64,000 bases of DNA, from positions 22,982-86,981 of IMG/VR virus record IMGVR_UViG_3300006051_000001. The stretch is one strand, 5' to 3'. Below, piece after piece: positions 4,085 to 33,647 of this stretch (its first letter is position 1; every line of letters begins with the position of its first letter). A model generated the notes under the pieces. The model was not told the DNA's origin. It was given only the letters and a program-made list of their open reading frames with translations, and made no database searches. Source of the stretch: a virus. Both the position numbers and the translations under genes were made by a program.

Positions 4085-4426
4085 CTAACTAGCGTTCAGG
4101 CTAGTACGGTAGATTTGTTTAAACCGCGCAACCAAGGCCATGTCAGGCACGAGGATGTGGTTGATCGTTTCATCAATCTGGTGGATAGAGGTAAACCCGT
4201 TAACTCGCATCACCAGATAATGATCCTCAAGTGGTACGCTGTTCGCTAAAAGGAACTGCGTTAGGTCGAACCTGTAGAGATATCCAGTCTCAGGAGCTAC
4301 CGGTACTTGACGGGTGGAATCCGATTCTCTGAAGTACATGATCAGAGAGTCTACGTACGTCCGATATTCTTGAGTGAGTGTGAAGCTTGAGGGAGACGCT
4401 ACGATCCACTTGGAGATGCCAGTCAT
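4085..4426 (-). CDS. Small conserved protein (phiKZ gp70 position), possibly LysM/T4 gp53-like baseplate protein
   Basis: 113 aa; YRFDL...HYLVMRVNG...ILVPD pattern recalls LysM-type wedge proteins (inference). Confidence 0.45.
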   Translation of the reverse strand: MTGISKWIVASPSSFTLTQEYRTYVDSLIMYFRESDSTRQVPVAPETGYLYRFDLTQFLLANSVPLEDHYLVMRVNGFTSIHQIDETINHILVPDMALVARFKQIYRTSLNAS

Positions 4427-16245: not shown

Positions 16246-18086
16246 GTGACGAACAGATCGTAGATCAACCTGAAGAAGAACGCCCGGTCGTATTGGAAGA
16301 GCAGATCTCCAAACCGGCTGAGTTCACTCCGACTCCTGCTGAAGAGCCTGTAGATCTCAGCGAGCCTCAGTGGCAAGCGATCGATGAACTACCATCGGGC
16401 TTCGCTCACGAGCCAGCACATGAGCATCCAGCGCAAGAAGCTGAAGCTCTGGGTGACCTGATGGCCGCGCTTCCTGTCAGTGAGCAGATCGTCGATCTGT
16501 CCGTACCGACTCCGGAAGCTGACCCTACGCCAACTCGCGAAATGATCGGCGACTACACGCCGAACATGAACGTCAATGACGATCAGGGTATCTTGACCGT
16601 ATTGACCGACGAACAACTGGCGAAGTTCTCTCGCGACAATCCGTCCGTTCTGCTGTCCAACTTCTCGGCTTCCGAACTGGACGTCATGTACGACCAGATC
16701 GAGCGTCAAGTAGCAGCCGCTCAAGCATCTCGTGAAGAACTCGTGAAGAACGGCGGTGGTGCCGGTCTCTACGCTGGCCGTACTGACGATGGCGAAGTGA
16801 TCTACATCACCGTCAACGAAGGTAAGGCGATGGGTGCGATTGACGACTATCGCAAAACCACCGCCCCATACCGCGACAACGATGATCTCTTCGGCGACGA
16901 CAGCGAATGGACCAACCTGCCTAAGGTCGGTGATACTCCGATTGCTCCTGGCCGTCTGGACCACGAGAAGTCGAAAGACCCGGTCATGCGTATCCGTGGT
17001 CGTCTGGGTATGGCTGTTGAATACACCAACCCGTTCTGGGCGTCAGGCCTACACATGGTTATCGAAGGCGCTGGTGCGCTGGAAGAACTCTCTCTGGATC
17101 AGAAGATCCTGACTGAGAAAGCCGAGATGGGTCGTGACAGCAGCGGTTATGTCTACAGTGCTTCGGCTCTGTACCTGAACCGTCCTGTGGTTGACTTCGC
17201 TCTGAGTCAAGTGCGTAGCACCACCATCGGTACTACTGATCCGCAAGTGCTGAAGAGCCTCCTGCTGATTACTGATATCGATCCGCTGGCGCTGGCCATG
17301 GCTTCTGCCAACATGCCTAACGGCTTCCTGCTGGAACGTCCTTGCCTGGAACAGATCGGCGGTTGCGGTTACGTTACCAAGCGTCAGGTGAACCTGCGCC
17401 GTATGCTGATGGTTCGTCGTTCGAAGTTGTCGGATGACCAAGCTCAGTTCATGAGCAAGCGTGCTGGTACTGTTGACATCAAGACTGTTCTCGGCTACCA
17501 AGCCAAGATGCGTCCTGAGATCAGCCGTATCGTCCAACTGAAAGGCGGCATGATCCTGCGCTTCAAGGTTCCTACCATCGCTGAATACGAGCGTATCGCT
17601 TCGGCATGGCTGGACTACATGGATCAGCAGTCCCGTAAGGTTGCTGCCAGCAATGCTAACCAGCAAGAGCGTGAAGCGTTCCTGTTGAAGGCATCTCGTG
17701 TCTCCGTTCTGATGGCCTACGGTCACTGGATCGAAGCTATCCTCGAAACCAACCCTGACGATCTGGCTGCTGAGCCTAAAGTAATGATCGAACGCGTTGG
17801 CGAAGAAGGTAGTCCTGAGCAGTACCAGTCTGACGTTCAAATGCAGCGTCTGTTGGTATCTCTGGCTGTCGATCAGGATCTGAGCGATCAGATCATCGAA
17901 GAGCTCAGCGAGTTCATCAACCAGATGACCATGTCTACACCGGTTATCCCGAAGATGAAGTGCCCGAACTGCGGTAAACAGATGCACGGCGACGATGCTT
18001 CGAAGCATCCACACCTTGTAAACCTGAACGCCGTAGAAGTTTTTTTTACCCTACTCCGCCTCAGAATGCAAAAGCTGTCAAGCTAA
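16242..18086 (+). CDS. Putative tail/baseplate assembly chaperone (G-like / T4 gp26-like), acidic N-terminus, C-terminal CxxC
   Basis: 614 aa; LRFKVPTIAEY and KCPNCGK recall baseplate-hub assembly proteins (inference); slippery T-run near the 3' end. Confidence 0.55.
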   Translation: MSDEQIVDQPEEERPVVLEEQISKPAEFTPTPAEEPVDLSEPQWQAIDELPSGFAHEPAHEHPAQEAEALGDLMAALPVSEQIVDLSVPTPEADPTPTREMIGDYTPNMNVNDDQGILTVLTDEQLAKFSRDNPSVLLSNFSASELDVMYDQIERQVAAAQASREELVKNGGGAGLYAGRTDDGEVIYITVNEGKAMGAIDDYRKTTAPYRDNDDLFGDDSEWTNLPKVGDTPIAPGRLDHEKSKDPVMRIRGRLGMAVEYTNPFWASGLHMVIEGAGALEELSLDQKILTEKAEMGRDSSGYVYSASALYLNRPVVDFALSQVRSTTIGTTDPQVLKSLLLITDIDPLALAMASANMPNGFLLERPCLEQIGGCGYVTKRQVNLRRMLMVRRSKLSDDQAQFMSKRAGTVDIKTVLGYQAKMRPEISRIVQLKGGMILRFKVPTIAEYERIASAWLDYMDQQSRKVAASNANQQEREAFLLKASRVSVLMAYGHWIEAILETNPDDLAAEPKVMIERVGEEGSPEQYQSDVQMQRLLVSLAVDQDLSDQIIEELSEFINQMTMSTPVIPKMKCPNCGKQMHGDDASKHPHLVNLNAVEVFFTLLRLRMQKLSS

Positions 18087-18565
18087 CTCCCAACGGCGAA
18101 GTGTATCACCACATCGGCCTCCACGATTTCGGCAGAGAGATCACTCCGTTCACGGAAGGTACTCCTCTGTACAACTTAATCATGGGTAAGACCGTGAAGG
18201 ACGACTTCACTTCGCAGTTGATGTTCCTTGAAGCTTACGACGAAACCTTCGGTATCTTCGACCACGCCACATTCGACCACAACGACCCAATGTCTATCAT
18301 CGCGATGCATCCATCCGAAGATATGATCACTGGGTCACGGTTGGTGTCGTACTCGAGGGAACTGATGGCCTGTCGTATTCCTGAGCTGACCAATAAGCCT
18401 ATCGATGAACTGATGAGATTACCCAAGTGGTATTTGGATGATCTTCTGAAGGATGGGCGTAAGGCACGGACTCGGGAAGATGCTGAAGTGGAGAAGATGC
18501 AGAACGATCTCAAGGCTAGTGCCGAAGCTGCGGCTGAACGTTCGCAGAACGGTGAGAAACCGTAG
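18041..18565 (+). CDS. -1 frame extension (GT-like) of 16242-18086; track ORF 18101-18565
   Basis: The -1 frame is open from 17978 to 18565; T TTT TTT at 18041-18047; GTG 18101 has no SD. Confidence 0.65.
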   Translation, partial: FFYPTPPQNAKAVKLTPNGEVYHHIGLHDFGREITPFTEGTPLYNLIMGKTVKDDFTSQLMFLEAYDETFGIFDHATFDHNDPMSIIAMHPSEDMITGSRLVSYSRELMACRIPELTNKPIDELMRLPKWYLDDLLKDGRKARTREDAEVEKMQNDLKASAEAAAERSQNGEKP

Positions 18566-30555: not shown

Positions 30556-31893
30556 ATGAGCAAATCTCTGCACGCAGCCCTTCTTCAATACGGCGTCGAA
30601 TCCGGCGAGATCGAGCCAGAAGAAGTGATCTACCCGGCCGGTGAAGAAGAAATCACCGTCATCACCGACGAAACCATGTCGGACCTGGAAGAAGCCGTTG
30701 CCGAACTGGCCGACGACGTCGAAAAGGTTGAAGACCACGAAAACGGCGCCGAAAAGGTGATCGAGGCTGTTGAATCCCTGGAAGCCTACGTTGTTCAGTT
30801 CGAACGTCTGGGCGAAGCCGGCATCAGCATCAACACCACCGCGGCCAACTTCGCGCTGCAAGGCATCGTCGCTTCCCTGGAAGGCCGCAACATTCCTGCC
30901 GCCGTCTACAGCACCGAAGCCTTCGCGCTGCAAGAGTCGTTCGAAGCTGACGACAAAGAAGCCGACAAAGGTCCTGGCCTGCTGGGCAAGGGTAAAGCCC
31001 TGCTGACCAAGCTGTGGAACATGTTGAAAGCCGCTGCTGGCGCTGTGAAGCAAGCCATCATCGACTTCTTCGCCACCATGGGCAAATCCGCTGCCGCCAT
31101 CAAGGCCGGCGGTGAGAAGCTGAAGCGTGTTGGCGCATCGATCAAAGACAGCAAAACTGTCTCCCTGAAAGGTGGCTCGTATAGCGCTCTGACCGTTGGC
31201 GGTTCGGTTGATCCGATCAAGGCAATGGGTGACGTTAATAGCGGCTACAAGACCGCTGTTGTTGACAACATCACCAAGCTGCGCATCGTGGTTAACCCAC
31301 TGGTGAAAGCTCTGCGCAACCCAACTCCAGGCGGCGTCAAGTCGGCTGCTGAAGGTATCGACGTCAAGTCGCTGGCTTCCGCAAGCGCTTCCCTGCCAGG
31401 CGGCTTCGTTGCTCACTTCACCGTTGGTTCGGGTGAAGGCGTTGCAGCTCTGACCGGCACTACCTTCAAGATCGAGAAGACCAAAGGCGGCGAAGCTGCT
31501 AAGGACTTCAACGCTCTGTCCGGTGGTGACATCGTCAAGCTGGGTACTGCTGTTGTTGCCACTGCTGACCTGATGGTCAAAGCCAAGTCCGACGCTGACG
31601 CCATCATCAAGTCGAACGACGAGCTGCTGTCGGCCGCTACCACCGCGATCAACGCTGCCAAGGACGACGAAGCTCAGGGCGCTGCTCGCGAGCTGCTGAA
31701 GACCGCTACCAAGCTGATGTCCGTTACCAAGGGCTTCGTACCTACCTACGTTCGCTACATGGCTACCACTGCCAAGGTTGCGTACAAAGCTGGTATGGCC
31801 TCGGCTTCGGCTCACGGCAAGAAAGACAAAGCTGAAGACGGCGCGGCTGATAAGCCAGCTGACCCAAAGCTGCTGAAAAACGAGGACAAGTAA
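30556..31893 (+). CDS. Internal head protein paralog with acidic propeptide
   Basis: Acidic N-terminus, SLE/STE/SFE motifs, then KLWNMLK helix; strong codon bias. Confidence 0.75.
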   Translation: MSKSLHAALLQYGVESGEIEPEEVIYPAGEEEITVITDETMSDLEEAVAELADDVEKVEDHENGAEKVIEAVESLEAYVVQFERLGEAGISINTTAANFALQGIVASLEGRNIPAAVYSTEAFALQESFEADDKEADKGPGLLGKGKALLTKLWNMLKAAAGAVKQAIIDFFATMGKSAAAIKAGGEKLKRVGASIKDSKTVSLKGGSYSALTVGGSVDPIKAMGDVNSGYKTAVVDNITKLRIVVNPLVKALRNPTPGGVKSAAEGIDVKSLASASASLPGGFVAHFTVGSGEGVAALTGTTFKIEKTKGGEAAKDFNALSGGDIVKLGTAVVATADLMVKAKSDADAIIKSNDELLSAATTAINAAKDDEAQGAARELLKTATKLMSVTKGFVPTYVRYMATTAKVAYKAGMASASAHGKKDKAEDGAADKPADPKLLKNEDK

Positions 31894-32231
31894 AATCCGC
31901 CGAGGACGCTCCGGCGTCCGTCACCTCGAACGTTGAAAAGTTCGTTAAAGAAGGTGACTTGGACCACATTCGTACAGCTCTACGTTTGGAGCTGAACAAT
32001 GCGAAGTTGTCCTCGAAGGATTTCGTTGAGATGGTTAAGTGGGTGAAGGCCAACGTCAAAGGGTTGTTCGTACCTTACGATGAAGGTTCCTTCGCCAGGG
32101 AGATGAAAGAGAGTAAGTCGGATTGGGACGAGGACTACTTCCATATGCAAGTAGTCTACCTGAAAACCAACTTCTCTGAAAAGCGTCTCCAACACCTCAT
32201 CCGTGTTAACGAGCACTTGTCGAAGAAGTGA
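31863..32231 (+). CDS. -1 frameshift extension of 30556-31893 (track ORF 31959-32231)
   Basis: The -1 frame opens at 31863, the first base of in-frame C CCA AAG; 31894-31958 reads as normal coding sequence. Confidence 0.65.
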   Translation, partial: PKAAEKRGQVKSAEDAPASVTSNVEKFVKEGDLDHIRTALRLELNNAKLSSKDFVEMVKWVKANVKGLFVPYDEGSFAREMKESKSDWDEDYFHMQVVYLKTNFSEKRLQHLIRVNEHLSKK

Positions 32232-32251: not shown

Positions 32252-32279
32252 CGGGGGTGGAAACACCCCCGTTCTATGC
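32252..32279 (+). terminator. Hairpin of the TATG family
   Basis: CGGGGGTG-GAAA-CACCCCCG-TTCTATG. Confidence 0.75.
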
Positions 32280-32339
32280 CGCGTTTATGATATAGCTTCC
32301 GCTATCAACACCATCCTACTTGTGCAACGGGTGATAACA

Positions 32340-33647
32340 ATGACACGGTTCTCCGACGAATTCAAACAGTCGATGCTTGGCGACGGTTCTTTCGAATCCG
32401 CCATCGTCGATGAAAGCGCTTACCAAGAAACAGGCATCACTCCTGAGCTGGTTATCCAGACTCAAGAAGAACGTGCAGAGCTCGCTGATGCTCTGGATCA
32501 GGTTGATGAAATCGGTGATGACCGTAAAGACATCGACGCTGCCGCTGCTGTAACTGACGCTGTTGTATCGGCAGTAAGCGCTGCTGAAACCATGCCCGCT
32601 GCTGCATCGGAAACCTTCGCTGAGATTGCGAACGTAACCATCGCTTCGGCTGCTCAAGTGCTGGACATGGAAATGCCTCGTCTCGAGACTGATCCACACA
32701 CCGGCGCTATCACCGAAGCATCCATGGAAAGCTTCAGCAGCTGGTTCTCCGGCGCTGCCAAGTCCTTCATGGAAGCCAGTGCGAACTTCTTTGCTCGTAT
32801 CGGTCTGGGTATCTCCCGTCTGAACGACAGCTCCCAAGGTCTGACTAAGCGCTGCATGCGCGTTCGTACCGTGATGGGTGATCGTAAAGGCAACGGCGGT
32901 AAGCCAATCAAGCTGAGCTCCGGCGTGCAGCGCCATCTGGTGCTGGGTGATGGTTATGCCTCCAGTCCTATCGAAGCTCTCACCGAGTTCTCGGTTACCA
33001 ACATCAGCGTTACTCGTGTAATCAACGAGTACCACAAGCGTCTGGGTGATCTGATCAAGGATCGTATCTTCGCAGCTGTTGCGTCTGGTCAGAAGAACGA
33101 CATCTTCGTTGACCTGAAGAGTTCCGACCTGCTGGAAGATCTCGAGAAGATCCTCGGCCGTCAGCCGAAGAACCTGATGGGTAACCAGATCTACGGGTTC
33201 AACGATCGCCCTGTCAACAAGGTGCTGACCGTAACCCTGCAATCGGGCATGCCTAACGCCATCGACCTGATCCGTCACCTCGATGCTCCGAACTCTCTGA
33301 GCAACGAACAGATCAGCGCGATGCTGGGTTCTCTGGAAGGTTTGATCGCTGAGCAACTGATTGCTCTCGAGAAGATCACCAGTCAGTCCAAGGCTTCGTT
33401 CAAGTCCCTGCAAGACGTGATCAAGAAGTTCAACGGCATGGCTGAAGAAGCTGAGATCGCTCAGCTCAAAGCCGGCGGCGCTGAAGCACCTGTTGCCATC
33501 AACTCGATGGAACTGCTGCGCGTCGAGAACCAACTGGTTTCCGAACTCGGCCGCGTCTGCGACCGTCTGGTTGATTACCAGCGTGACATGATCGACCGTA
33601 TCGACTCGTTGTTGACTTTGGTCGAAGAGTCGGTCTTCCAAGACTGA
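32340..33647 (+). CDS. Internal head protein paralog
   Basis: Acidic propeptide, SFES and ASMES motifs, then FSSWF helix. Confidence 0.72.
   Translation: MTRFSDEFKQSMLGDGSFESAIVDESAYQETGITPELVIQTQEERAELADALDQVDEIGDDRKDIDAAAAVTDAVVSAVSAAETMPAAASETFAEIANVTIASAAQVLDMEMPRLETDPHTGAITEASMESFSSWFSGAAKSFMEASANFFARIGLGISRLNDSSQGLTKRCMRVRTVMGDRKGNGGKPIKLSSGVQRHLVLGDGYASSPIEALTEFSVTNISVTRVINEYHKRLGDLIKDRIFAAVASGQKNDIFVDLKSSDLLEDLEKILGRQPKNLMGNQIYGFNDRPVNKVLTVTLQSGMPNAIDLIRHLDAPNSLSNEQISAMLGSLEGLIAEQLIALEKITSQSKASFKSLQDVIKKFNGMAEEAEIAQLKAGGAEAPVAINSMELLRVENQLVSELGRVCDRLVDYQRDMIDRIDSLLTLVEESVFQD

What the first reader, a model, noticed from the sequence alone, without database searches (positions are those of the whole stretch)
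31860..32231. Candidate -1 frameshift adding a 120-aa domain to an internal head protein
Seen: the last codons read GAC CCA AAG, a canonical X XXY YYZ heptamer (C CCA AAG, 31863-31869). The -1 frame begins exactly there, after TGA at 31860-31862. It continues the linker (AAEKRGQVKSAEDAPASVTSNVEKFVKEGD) in normal codon usage into LDHIRTAL...YLKTNFSEKRLQHL. The alternative TTG start has poor SD spacing. A GGACGC-TCCG-GCGTCC hairpin lies at 31904-31919, farther away than typical stimulators. Predicted products are 445 and ~558 aa. Known: T7 10A/10B-type capsid frameshifts. Inference: a minor isoform delivers an extra domain into the host.
Basis: partly seen in the sequence, partly recalled or inferred. 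Interest (0 to 1): 0.75.

Follow-up and report, generated by a model that had tools for sequence, protein, structure and literature searches.

The report
Frameshift adds cargo domain to head-protein
An uncultured giant (phiKZ-like) phage very probably lets a few ribosomes slip back one base near the end of an internal head protein gene, so that some copies carry an extra 100-residue domain, related to the membrane adaptor of a bacterial dynamin-HerA-nuclease gene cluster, which is probably packed into the capsid and injected with the DNA.

Summary
C CCA AAG (31863-31869) is in X XXY YYZ register in a 445-aa PF12699 (phiKZ internal head protein) gene. The -1 frame opens exactly there and runs to 32231, which predicts a 558-aa product.

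- **No independent start:** TTG 31959 is a conserved Leu codon inside the domain. Helix 1 lies upstream of it, and no start codon precedes it.
- **Same junction, other solutions:** other giant phages join the domain to their internal head protein by in-frame fusion, by -1 overlap (C CCA AAG, G GGA AAC, A AAA AAG, or A AAG next to the stop), or across one in-frame TGA.
- **Census:** in 15 internal head protein genes, the only in-register heptamers lie in the last 8 codons of extension-bearing genes.
- **Natural controls:** close relatives (41-97% identical) lack both extension and heptamer.

Weak points are the absence of a clear stimulator in this window, no protein-level data, and an uncultured phage.

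The domain has no known fold. Its bacterial homologues are the tail-anchored adaptor of WYL / two-dynamin / HerA / nuclease-toxin clusters, which hints at an injected decoy (speculative).

This scan already reported the same frameshift on other DNA (e1-5392760, e1-5352331). I found no paper describing it.

The parts
30556..31893 (+). Internal head protein gene, zero frame, 445 aa (P0001)
   Evidence: PF12699 phiKZ_IP at 65.7 bits against a cut-off of 27. phrog_2497 'internal head protein'. Conserved synteny with relatives.
31860..31862 (+). TGA that closes the -1 frame just upstream of the slip site
   Evidence: The -1 / zero frame overlap is only 31 nt.
31863..31869 (+). Slippery heptamer C CCA AAG in X XXY YYZ register
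   Evidence: It is the only in-register heptamer in the gene. It is among the three most efficient motifs in E. coli (PMC4066793). The 96%-identical relative without the extension has T CCA AAG.
31875..31881 (+). Alternative, non-canonical site G AAA AAC inside the same overlap
   Evidence: Read directly. The P-site re-pairing is imperfect. It cannot be told apart from the main site without peptide data.
31869..32231 (+). -1 frame extension: 120 codons plus TGA. A linker of about 20 residues, then the domain.
   Evidence: There is no ATG, GTG or TTG between 31863 and 31958.
31929..32228 (+). Conserved helical domain (P0002 residues 23-122)
   Evidence: 232 homologues at E<=1e-3. AlphaFold model at pLDDT 88 with five helices, the first at residues 22-30. 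N23, K26, F27, V28, E30, G31 and D32 match the majority residue of 54-57 homologues.
31959..31961 (+). TTG: a conserved Leu codon of the domain, not a credible start
   Evidence: Leu in 68% of homologues. GAAGG lies only 4 nt upstream, whereas neighbouring genes have AGGAG-type sites at 6-8 nt. Gene callers chose 90 aa or 66 aa for the same DNA in different assemblies.
31881..31928 (+). Weak composite RNA structure: CGAGG 31881-85 pairs with CCUCG 31924-28, around the hairpin 31904-31919
   Evidence: -16.9 kcal/mol, z -1.2, which is not significant. The spacer to the heptamer is 11 nt. The inner hairpin starts 34 nt after the heptamer.
32252..32271 (+). GC-rich hairpin with a GAAA loop after the extension, the likely end of the transcription unit
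   Evidence: In relative L003 a comparable hairpin follows the internal head protein stop directly, and homology resumes at the shared TATGCCGCGTTTATGATATAGC. The consensus scan did not call it because it has no T run.

Best explanation
This is a programmed -1 ribosomal frameshift.

Most ribosomes translate the internal head protein gene to TAA 31891-31893 and make the 445-aa protein. A minority slip back one base, most likely with the tRNAs on CCA and AAG re-pairing on CCC and AAA at 31863-31869. They then read a linker of about 20 residues and a 100-residue five-helix domain, ending at 32231. The product is 558 aa.

Because its N-terminal 438 residues are the normal PF12699 protein, the long form should be taken into the prohead with the short form. 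It should end up inside the capsid at low stoichiometry and leave with the DNA at infection.

Shown here:
- the signal and its register;
- that the domain's coding sequence starts upstream of any start codon;
- that relatives join the same two parts by fusion, by other slip motifs, or across one stop codon.

Inferred:
- the efficiency, expected to be low because no clear stimulator is present;
- packaging and injection;
- what the domain does.
For: 1. The heptamer is in register, the -1 frame opens at it, and the predicted product is 558 aa.

2. The domain begins upstream of TTG 31959.
- Homology to phage and bacterial proteins starts at P0002 residues 9-23.
- Helix 1 is residues 22-30, with block pLDDT 93.
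- Seven residues between 23 and 32 are the majority residue in 53-75% of homologues.
- No start codon lies between 31863 and 31958.

3. In-frame fusions of PF12699 with this domain exist. Examples are P0042 (574 aa), P0044 (565 aa), P0119 (549 aa), P0043 = L016 (458 aa) and Edwardsiella phage pEt-SU (345 aa).

4. Other junctions put the domain in the -1 frame, again with no start before the conserved helix.

| Locus | Motif at the junction |
|---|---|
| L022 | C CCA AAG |
| L004, L021 | G GGA AAC followed by TGA |
| L020 | A AAA AAG followed by TAA |
| L017, L060 | A AAG followed by TAA |
| L018, L019 | same frame across a single TGA, the only TGA-ending gene there |

5. Census of 15 internal head protein genes (about 6,350 codons) gave five in-register heptamers. 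All five lie in the last 8 codons of extension-bearing genes, and there are none in the 8 extension-less genes.

6. The L004/L021 pair gives three supporting points.
- The heptamer is conserved amid variable flanks.
- There are 5 synonymous and 4 non-synonymous changes upstream of any start. A synonymous TTG to CTA change removes the supposed start.
- An 18-bp stem-loop lies 7 nt downstream, with one compensatory pair.

L022 has a hairpin 6 nt downstream, z -3.6.

7. The 96%-identical relative L003 lacks the extension, has T CCA AAG, and has a -1 frame TGA where the window has GAG.

8. In phiKZ, PF12699 proteins gp93, gp95 and gp97 are injected, and C-terminal fluorescent-protein fusions to them are packaged and injected (bioRxiv 10.1101/2024.03.24.586471).
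Against: - No convincing stimulator lies at 5-9 nt in this window. The hairpin starts 34 nt downstream, the composite fold has z -1.2, and there is no Rfam match.
- In E. coli, heptamers without a stimulator gave only 2-10 times a background of about 0.055% (PMC4066793). The long form may therefore be very rare.
- All eight closer relatives lack the extension, so it is a dispensable accessory.
- There is no peptide, ribosome-profiling or reporter evidence.
- The phage is an uncultured metagenomic record, 188 kb and about 75% complete, and its host is unknown.
- A second, imperfect site (G AAA AAC) lies in the same overlap.
Confidence: 0.82

Rival explanations
1. The downstream frame is a separate small gene. 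It would be translated from TTG 31959 (90 aa) or ATG 32031 (66 aa), perhaps by re-initiation after the stop at 31891.
For: An ORF with a TTG and a partial GAAGG lies there. Gene callers annotate it this way. Free-standing versions of the domain with their own ATG exist elsewhere, such as P0130, 109 aa.
Against: - TTG is the conserved Leu of the G-D-L motif.
- Such a product would lack helix 1 and seven majority-conserved residues that the DNA nevertheless encodes.
- GAAGG is forced by the conserved Glu-Gly codons and lies only 4 nt from the TTG.
- The supposed starts are not conserved between L004 and L021.
- The genuine free-standing form P0130 starts before helix 1.
Confidence: 0.06
2. It is a decaying fusion: a once in-frame gene that suffered a frameshift mutation or assembly error, so the domain is no longer made.
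For: In-frame fusions are the commonest phage arrangement. The window comes from a metagenome assembly.
Against: - The zero-frame C-terminus and its stop match the extension-less relative L003 codon for codon. Frame 0 is therefore authentic up to the TAA.
- The domain is intact and matches the family consensus.
- The same sequence occurs in several independent assemblies.
- Six further junctions show the same -1 geometry with slip motifs.
Confidence: 0.05
3. The frame change is real but occurs elsewhere or by another route. Candidates are slippage at G AAA AAC (31875-31881), or RNA polymerase slippage on the A run.
For: G AAA AAC lies within the 31-nt overlap. The first-reader note e1-5392772 favoured it on look-alike DNA.
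Against: - P-site re-pairing on GAA is imperfect, whereas C CCA AAG is canonical and among the best motifs.
- Five A's are short for transcriptional slippage (my own knowledge).
- L022 uses the same C CCA AAG.
Confidence: 0.07

Closest known systems
Phage T7/T3 gene 10 (capsid proteins 10A and 10B)
   Same: A -1 frameshift near the 3' end of a head gene yields a minor C-terminally extended isoform that is built into the same particle (references listed in PMC5009743).
   Different: Gene 10 encodes the shell protein, not an internal or ejected protein, and it is not homologous. The 10B tail is short and is not a portable folded domain with bacterial relatives.
Lambda G/GT tail assembly chaperone frameshift
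   Same: A low-level -1 slip at an X XXA AAG-type heptamer fixes the ratio of a short product to a fusion product (30:1). The device is conserved across phages despite low sequence similarity (PMC5009743).
   Different: G and GT are assembly factors absent from the virion. Here both products are expected to be virion cargo, and the extension is an optional accessory that most relatives lack.
phiKZ inner-body / internal head proteins gp93, gp95, gp97 (PF12699)
   Same: The 445-aa protein scores 65.7 bits on PF12699. In phiKZ these proteins are processed, packaged at high copy and injected, and they carry C-terminal fusions into the cell.
   Different: No frameshift has been described for them in the papers I could search. 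phiKZ itself has no copy of this domain among GenBank phage records.
In-frame PF12699 + domain fusions (P0042, P0044, P0119, L016; pEt-SU pETSU_029)
   Same: Same two modules in the same order, with a similar total length of 549-574 aa against 558 aa.
   Different: They are made by ordinary translation, so every copy carries the domain.
Q-beta A1 (read-through of the coat protein UGA)
   Same: Loci L018 and L019 join the same domain to the upstream protein across one in-frame TGA. This is the same logic of a minor extended structural protein.
   Different: Read-through is not used in the window itself, and it is not shown experimentally in L018.
T4 internal proteins (IPI-III, Alt) with capsid targeting sequence
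   Same: Cargo proteins are addressed to the prohead by an N-terminal part and injected with the DNA (PMC5694885). From my own knowledge, IPI* blocks a host restriction system.
   Different: They are unrelated in sequence, and each is a separate gene with no recoding.

Membership tests
-1 programmed ribosomal frameshift site (heptamer type) | X XXY YYZ heptamer in register with the zero frame | tested here: met
   C CCA AAG at 31863-31869, with codons CCA and AAG in frame.
-1 programmed ribosomal frameshift site (heptamer type) | The -1 frame is open from the site and encodes conserved protein that has no initiation codon of its own | tested here: met
   Open from 31863 to 32231. No ATG, GTG or TTG before 31959. 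Conserved helix 1 lies upstream of that TTG.
-1 programmed ribosomal frameshift site (heptamer type) | Stimulator: a downstream structure about 5-9 nt away, or an upstream SD-like element | tested here: inconclusive
   In the window, the hairpin starts 34 nt away and the weak composite helix has an 11-nt spacer, z -1.2. Relatives L004/L021 (7 nt, one compensatory pair) and L022 (6 nt, z -3.6) do have one.
-1 programmed ribosomal frameshift site (heptamer type) | The slip motif is kept wherever the two-frame arrangement is kept | tested here: met
   Five of seven -1 junctions have a canonical heptamer, and two have A AAG next to the stop. G GGA AAC is conserved between L004 and L021. No heptamer occurs in the 8 extension-less genes.
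-1 programmed ribosomal frameshift site (heptamer type) | A trans-frame protein is detected | not testable with these tools
PF12699 phiKZ-like internal head proteins | Profile score above Pfam's gathering cut-off | tested here: met
   65.7 bits against 27, covering residues 45-409.
PF12699 phiKZ-like internal head proteins | Packaged in the head, trimmed by the prohead protease, injected | not testable with these tools
   Known for phiKZ gp93, gp95 and gp97. Only inferred here.
Adaptor domain of bacterial WYL / dynamin x2 / HerA / toxin clusters (unnamed, no Pfam) | Significant sequence similarity over the whole domain | tested here: met
   E 1e-28 to 1e-34 and 43-56% identity to proteins of about 296 aa from Pseudomonas, Paraburkholderia and Halomonas.
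Adaptor domain of bacterial WYL / dynamin x2 / HerA / toxin clusters (unnamed, no Pfam) | Two tandem copies plus a C-terminal membrane helix, encoded between the dynamin-like GTPases and the HerA-like ATPase | tested here: not met
   The phage has one copy, no membrane helix, and a head-gene context. The bacterial context is shown. The phage part is therefore a homologous domain, not a member of that system.
T7 gene 10A/10B | Homology to the T7 major capsid protein | tested here: not met
   The Pfam and PHROG hits are to internal head proteins only. The likeness is one of mechanism only.

The most novel reading that the evidence does not exclude
The appended domain may be an injected decoy. 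It is a copy of the cytoplasmic adaptor domain of a widespread, undescribed bacterial cluster: a WYL regulator, two dynamin-like GTPases, a tail-anchored adaptor, a HerA-type ATPase, and a nuclease toxin with an immunity protein. Giant phages load it into the capsid on an internal head protein, so it arrives with the DNA and disarms or hijacks that membrane machine before any phage gene is expressed. Fusion, frameshift or stop read-through would then set the dose per virion. If true, this would also mark the bacterial cluster as an anti-phage system.
Probability: 0.2. Interest if true: 0.85.

Novelty: new variant of a known kind. Interest (0 to 1): 0.62.

Why it matters
- **Recoding.** One protein junction is solved in at least four ways across related phages: in-frame fusion, three different heptamers, an A AAG 'shifty stop', and UGA read-through. 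This is an unusually clear natural series. It suggests that the amount of cargo per capsid is under selection, and it offers ready-made controls, since near-identical phages lack both the heptamer and the extension.
- **Giant-phage biology.** It adds a way of loading optional cargo onto injected inner-body proteins. It also shows that gene callers systematically mis-annotate this cargo as truncated orphan ORFs of 66-107 aa.
- **Bacterial conflict systems.** The cargo's only relatives are the adaptor of an undescribed dynamin-HerA-nuclease cluster. A phage copy delivered at the moment of infection is the kind of clue that has pointed to defence functions before.

Tried and rejected
- **Nucleotide and protein searches.** Megablast of the region and tblastn of the 445-aa protein against GenBank phages found nothing.
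- **Family libraries.** Pfam, NCBIfam, PHROGs and PADLOC have no family for the domain.
- **Fold searches.**
  - Foldseek against PDB gave no hit at E<=0.001.
  - VIA-align wide gave a best Z of 5.6, within the noise for helical proteins.
  - The ESM Atlas returned only unnamed homologous clusters.
- **Complex prediction.** The phage domain with the 336-aa dynamin-like GTPase of P. fluorescens gave no answer (score 0.00). This is neither support nor evidence against binding.
- **RNA and signal scans.** There was no Rfam match around the site, and the consensus scan found no + strand promoter or terminator between the two frames.
- **Domain tree.** The tree of 63 rows over 107 columns is largely unresolved. 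The window's domain sits among bacterial rows with weak support (81-85), while the L004/L017/L060 group sits with phage fusions. The number of acquisitions cannot be settled.
- **L018 carrier protein.** The upstream protein of L018 resembles internal head proteins only weakly (hhalign probability 29%), so its identity as one is open.
- **Technical failures.** Alignment A2 was too diverse to seed a genome scan. A degenerate DNA pattern for the junction found only L003's contig.
- **Protease sites.** I considered prohead-protease sites in the linker (A-A-E and S-A-E) but dropped the idea. The motif is too short to mean anything without data.

Full report
**What is in the sequence**

The + strand ORF 30556-31893 encodes a 445-aa protein. 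It scores 65.7 bits on Pfam PF12699, 'phiKZ-like phage internal head proteins' (cut-off 27), and matches phrog_2497. The window is part of a 188-kb IMG/VR virus record, about 75% complete. The identical protein also sits on a 251-kb contig.

Near the 3' end the zero frame reads GAC CCA AAG CTG CTG AAA AAC GAG GAC AAG TAA. C CCA AAG (31863-31869) is therefore an X XXY YYZ heptamer in register, seven codons before the stop. The -1 frame is closed by TGA at 31860-31862 and is then open to TGA 32229-32231. A slip at the heptamer gives 438 + 120 = 558 aa. The only slip is calling these the 'last codons'.

**The downstream frame is not an independent gene**

- No ATG, GTG or TTG lies in the -1 frame between 31863 and TTG 31959.
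- A search of 1.84 billion representatives found 232 homologues of the 122-residue translation. Alignments begin at residues 9-23, upstream of the TTG (residue 33).
- An AlphaFold model built on 57 homologues has pLDDT 88 and five helices. The first spans residues 22-30, in a block with pLDDT 93.
- Residues N23, K26, F27, V28, E30, G31 and D32 are each the majority residue in 53-75% of homologues. L33, the TTG itself, is Leu in 68%.
- The GAAGG before the TTG is simply the conserved Glu-Gly codons. It lies 4 nt from the TTG, whereas neighbouring genes have AGGAG-type sites 6-8 nt from an ATG.
- Gene callers gave the same DNA a 90-aa or a 66-aa product in different assemblies.

Ribosomes can therefore reach helix 1 only by entering the -1 frame within the 31-nt overlap 31863-31893.

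**Relatives**

*(a) In-frame fusions.* Single-frame proteins of 458-574 aa carry PF12699 followed by this domain. They include P0042, P0044, P0119 and P0043 (= L016, in a 233-kb viral contig). Cultured Edwardsiella phage pEt-SU has it at the C-terminus of a 345-aa protein that scores 31 bits on PF12699. Kosakonia phage Kc263 has it on a 333-aa protein that stays below the PF12699 cut-off (17.7 bits).

*(b) Other two-frame junctions.* Each has the domain in the -1 frame and no start before helix 1.

| Locus | Motif and position |
|---|---|
| L022 | C CCA AAG, one codon before TAA |
| L004 and its relative L021 | G GGA AAC directly before TGA |
| L020 | A AAA AAG directly before TAA, after a 558-aa PF12699 gene |
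| L017 and L060 | GCA AAG TAA and GAA AAG TAA (Z ZZN tetramer A AAG next to the stop) |

In L060 the -1 frame opens only 10 nt before the end of the gene.

*(c) Same frame.* In L018 and L019, from two different samples, the domain follows the upstream protein in the same frame across a single TGA. That gene is the only one there ending in TGA, and the others use TAA or TAG. Reading TGA as sense changes little else; the only long new frame is this fusion.

*(d) Natural controls.* Eight orthologues that are 41-97% identical to the window's protein (L003, L005-L014) have no extension and go straight to the next gene after about 100 nt.

The 96% relative L003 reads GAT CCA AAG ... AAC GAT GAC AAA TAA. 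It therefore lacks the heptamer by one synonymous base. It also has a -1 frame TGA where the window has GAG.

**Statistics**

Across 15 internal head protein genes (about 6,350 codons) there are five in-register X XXY YYZ heptamers. All five lie in the last 8 codons of extension-bearing genes, inside -1 overlaps that total about 96 codons.

By my rough arithmetic, the chance of that placement is about (96/6350)^5, or about 1e-9. Counting L004 and L021 as one event gives about 5e-8.

Between L004 and L021 the heptamer is conserved while the flanks vary. Of nine codon changes upstream of the first possible start, five are synonymous. The supposed TTG start of L004 is a synonymous CTA in L021.

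**Stimulators**

- L004 and L021 share an 18-bp three-part stem-loop starting 7 nt after the heptamer. The z-scores are -2.2 and -3.7, with one compensatory CG/AU pair, though only two sequences are available.
- L022 has a strong hairpin 6 nt downstream, z -3.6.
- The window does not have one. The GGACGC/GCGUCC hairpin starts 34 nt downstream. An enclosing 5-bp helix (31881-85 / 31924-28) would give an 11-nt spacer, but the fold is not better than shuffles, z -1.2.
- There is no Rfam match.

In E. coli, C_CC.A_AA.G is one of the three most efficient motifs, reaching up to 54% with a strong pseudoknot. Without a stimulator, motifs reach only 2-10 times a background of about 0.055% (PMC4066793). 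I therefore expect a low-level shift here, which still means something for a protein packaged in many copies.

**Mechanism, shown and inferred**

Shown:
- the signal and its register;
- that translation must continue from the upstream gene;
- evolutionary interchange of fusion, frameshift and read-through at the same junction.

Inferred:
- that the long form is packaged and injected.

The inference rests on phiKZ. There the PF12699 paralogues gp93, gp95 and gp97 are proteolysed, packaged and injected, and C-terminal mNeonGreen or sfCherry2 fusions travel with them (bioRxiv 10.1101/2024.03.24.586471). It also rests on the capsid-targeting role proposed for the N-terminal propeptides of giant-phage head proteins (PMC5694885).

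**The domain**

The domain has no Pfam, NCBIfam, PHROG or PADLOC family, and no convincing PDB fold match.

Its bacterial homologues are proteins of about 296 aa with two tandem copies and a C-terminal membrane helix. In Pseudomonas, Paraburkholderia, Halomonas, Pseudidiomarina, Massilia and Planococcus they lie between two dynamin-like GTPases (about 335 and 751 aa, PF00350) and a HerA/FtsK-like ATPase of 1,030-1,230 aa.

Extending two loci showed more of the cluster:
- a WYL regulator in both;
- a Colicin-DNase/WHH nuclease followed by DUF6985 in Halomonas;
- a SUKH immunity protein in P. fluorescens.

Earlier notes of this scan describe the same kind of cluster as an undescribed 'dynamin-HerA machine with swappable toxin'. 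I confirmed only its gene content. A phage-delivered copy of its adaptor domain suggests a decoy or hijack, but nothing here tests that. The one complex prediction gave no answer.

A domain tree is too poorly resolved to count transfers between bacteria and phages.

**Known or new**

-1 frameshifts that extend phage structural or assembly proteins are classical, for example T7 10A/10B and lambda G/GT (PMC5009743). I found no paper linking frameshifting to phiKZ-type internal head proteins, within a library that lacks most subscription journals.

This scan itself has already reported the same event on look-alike DNA (e1-5392760) and a similar one (e1-5352331). These are not independent evidence.

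I rate it a new variant of a known kind.
- Confidence in the frameshift: about 0.8.
- Confidence in packaging and injection: lower, perhaps 0.6.
- Confidence in the decoy reading: about 0.2.

Noticed in passing
L024-L034, L051, L076, L077 (bacterial genomes): The bacterial homologues of the domain are tail-anchored tandem-domain proteins inside a conserved cluster. The cluster holds a WYL regulator, two dynamin-like GTPases, the adaptor, and a HerA/FtsK-like ATPase. These are followed by a Colicin-DNase/WHH nuclease plus DUF6985 (Halomonas) or a SUKH immunity protein (P. fluorescens). PADLOC gives only weak LeoBC and HerA/mad8 hits.
   Followed up: partly
L018 2426-2428; L019 890-892: In another phage lineage the same domain follows its carrier protein in the same frame across a single TGA. 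That gene is the only TGA-ending gene among nine, which makes it a candidate programmed stop read-through.
   Followed up: partly
L017 2441-2447; L060 1986-1992: Two related phages have no heptamer but share A AAG TAA G at the junction. In L060 the -1 frame opens only 10 nt before the end of the gene. This is a 'shifty stop' type of site.
   Followed up: partly
window 31959-32231 and 32031-32231: Public gene calls for this DNA disagree (90 aa from TTG, 66 aa from ATG). The short 'orphan' proteins P0105, P0111, P0123, P0136 and P0145 in the databases are likewise truncated calls of frameshift or read-through extensions.
   Followed up: yes
window 32322-33647: The next gene more likely starts at ATG 32341 (GGGTGA lies upstream) than at GTG 32322. 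It has no Pfam or PHROG family here, whereas the gene at the same position in L014 and L017 is a PF12699 paralogue.
   Followed up: no
window 17978-18565: An earlier first-reader note (e1-5349032) flags a second candidate -1 frameshift in this window, at a run of eight T's (18040-18047) between a 614-aa ORF and a 154-aa ORF. I did not examine it.
   Followed up: no
window 32252-32271; L003 about 4373-4392: A GC-rich hairpin follows the extension in the window, and one follows the internal head protein stop directly in the extension-less relative. The extension therefore sits between the gene and the likely end of its transcription unit.
   Followed up: partly
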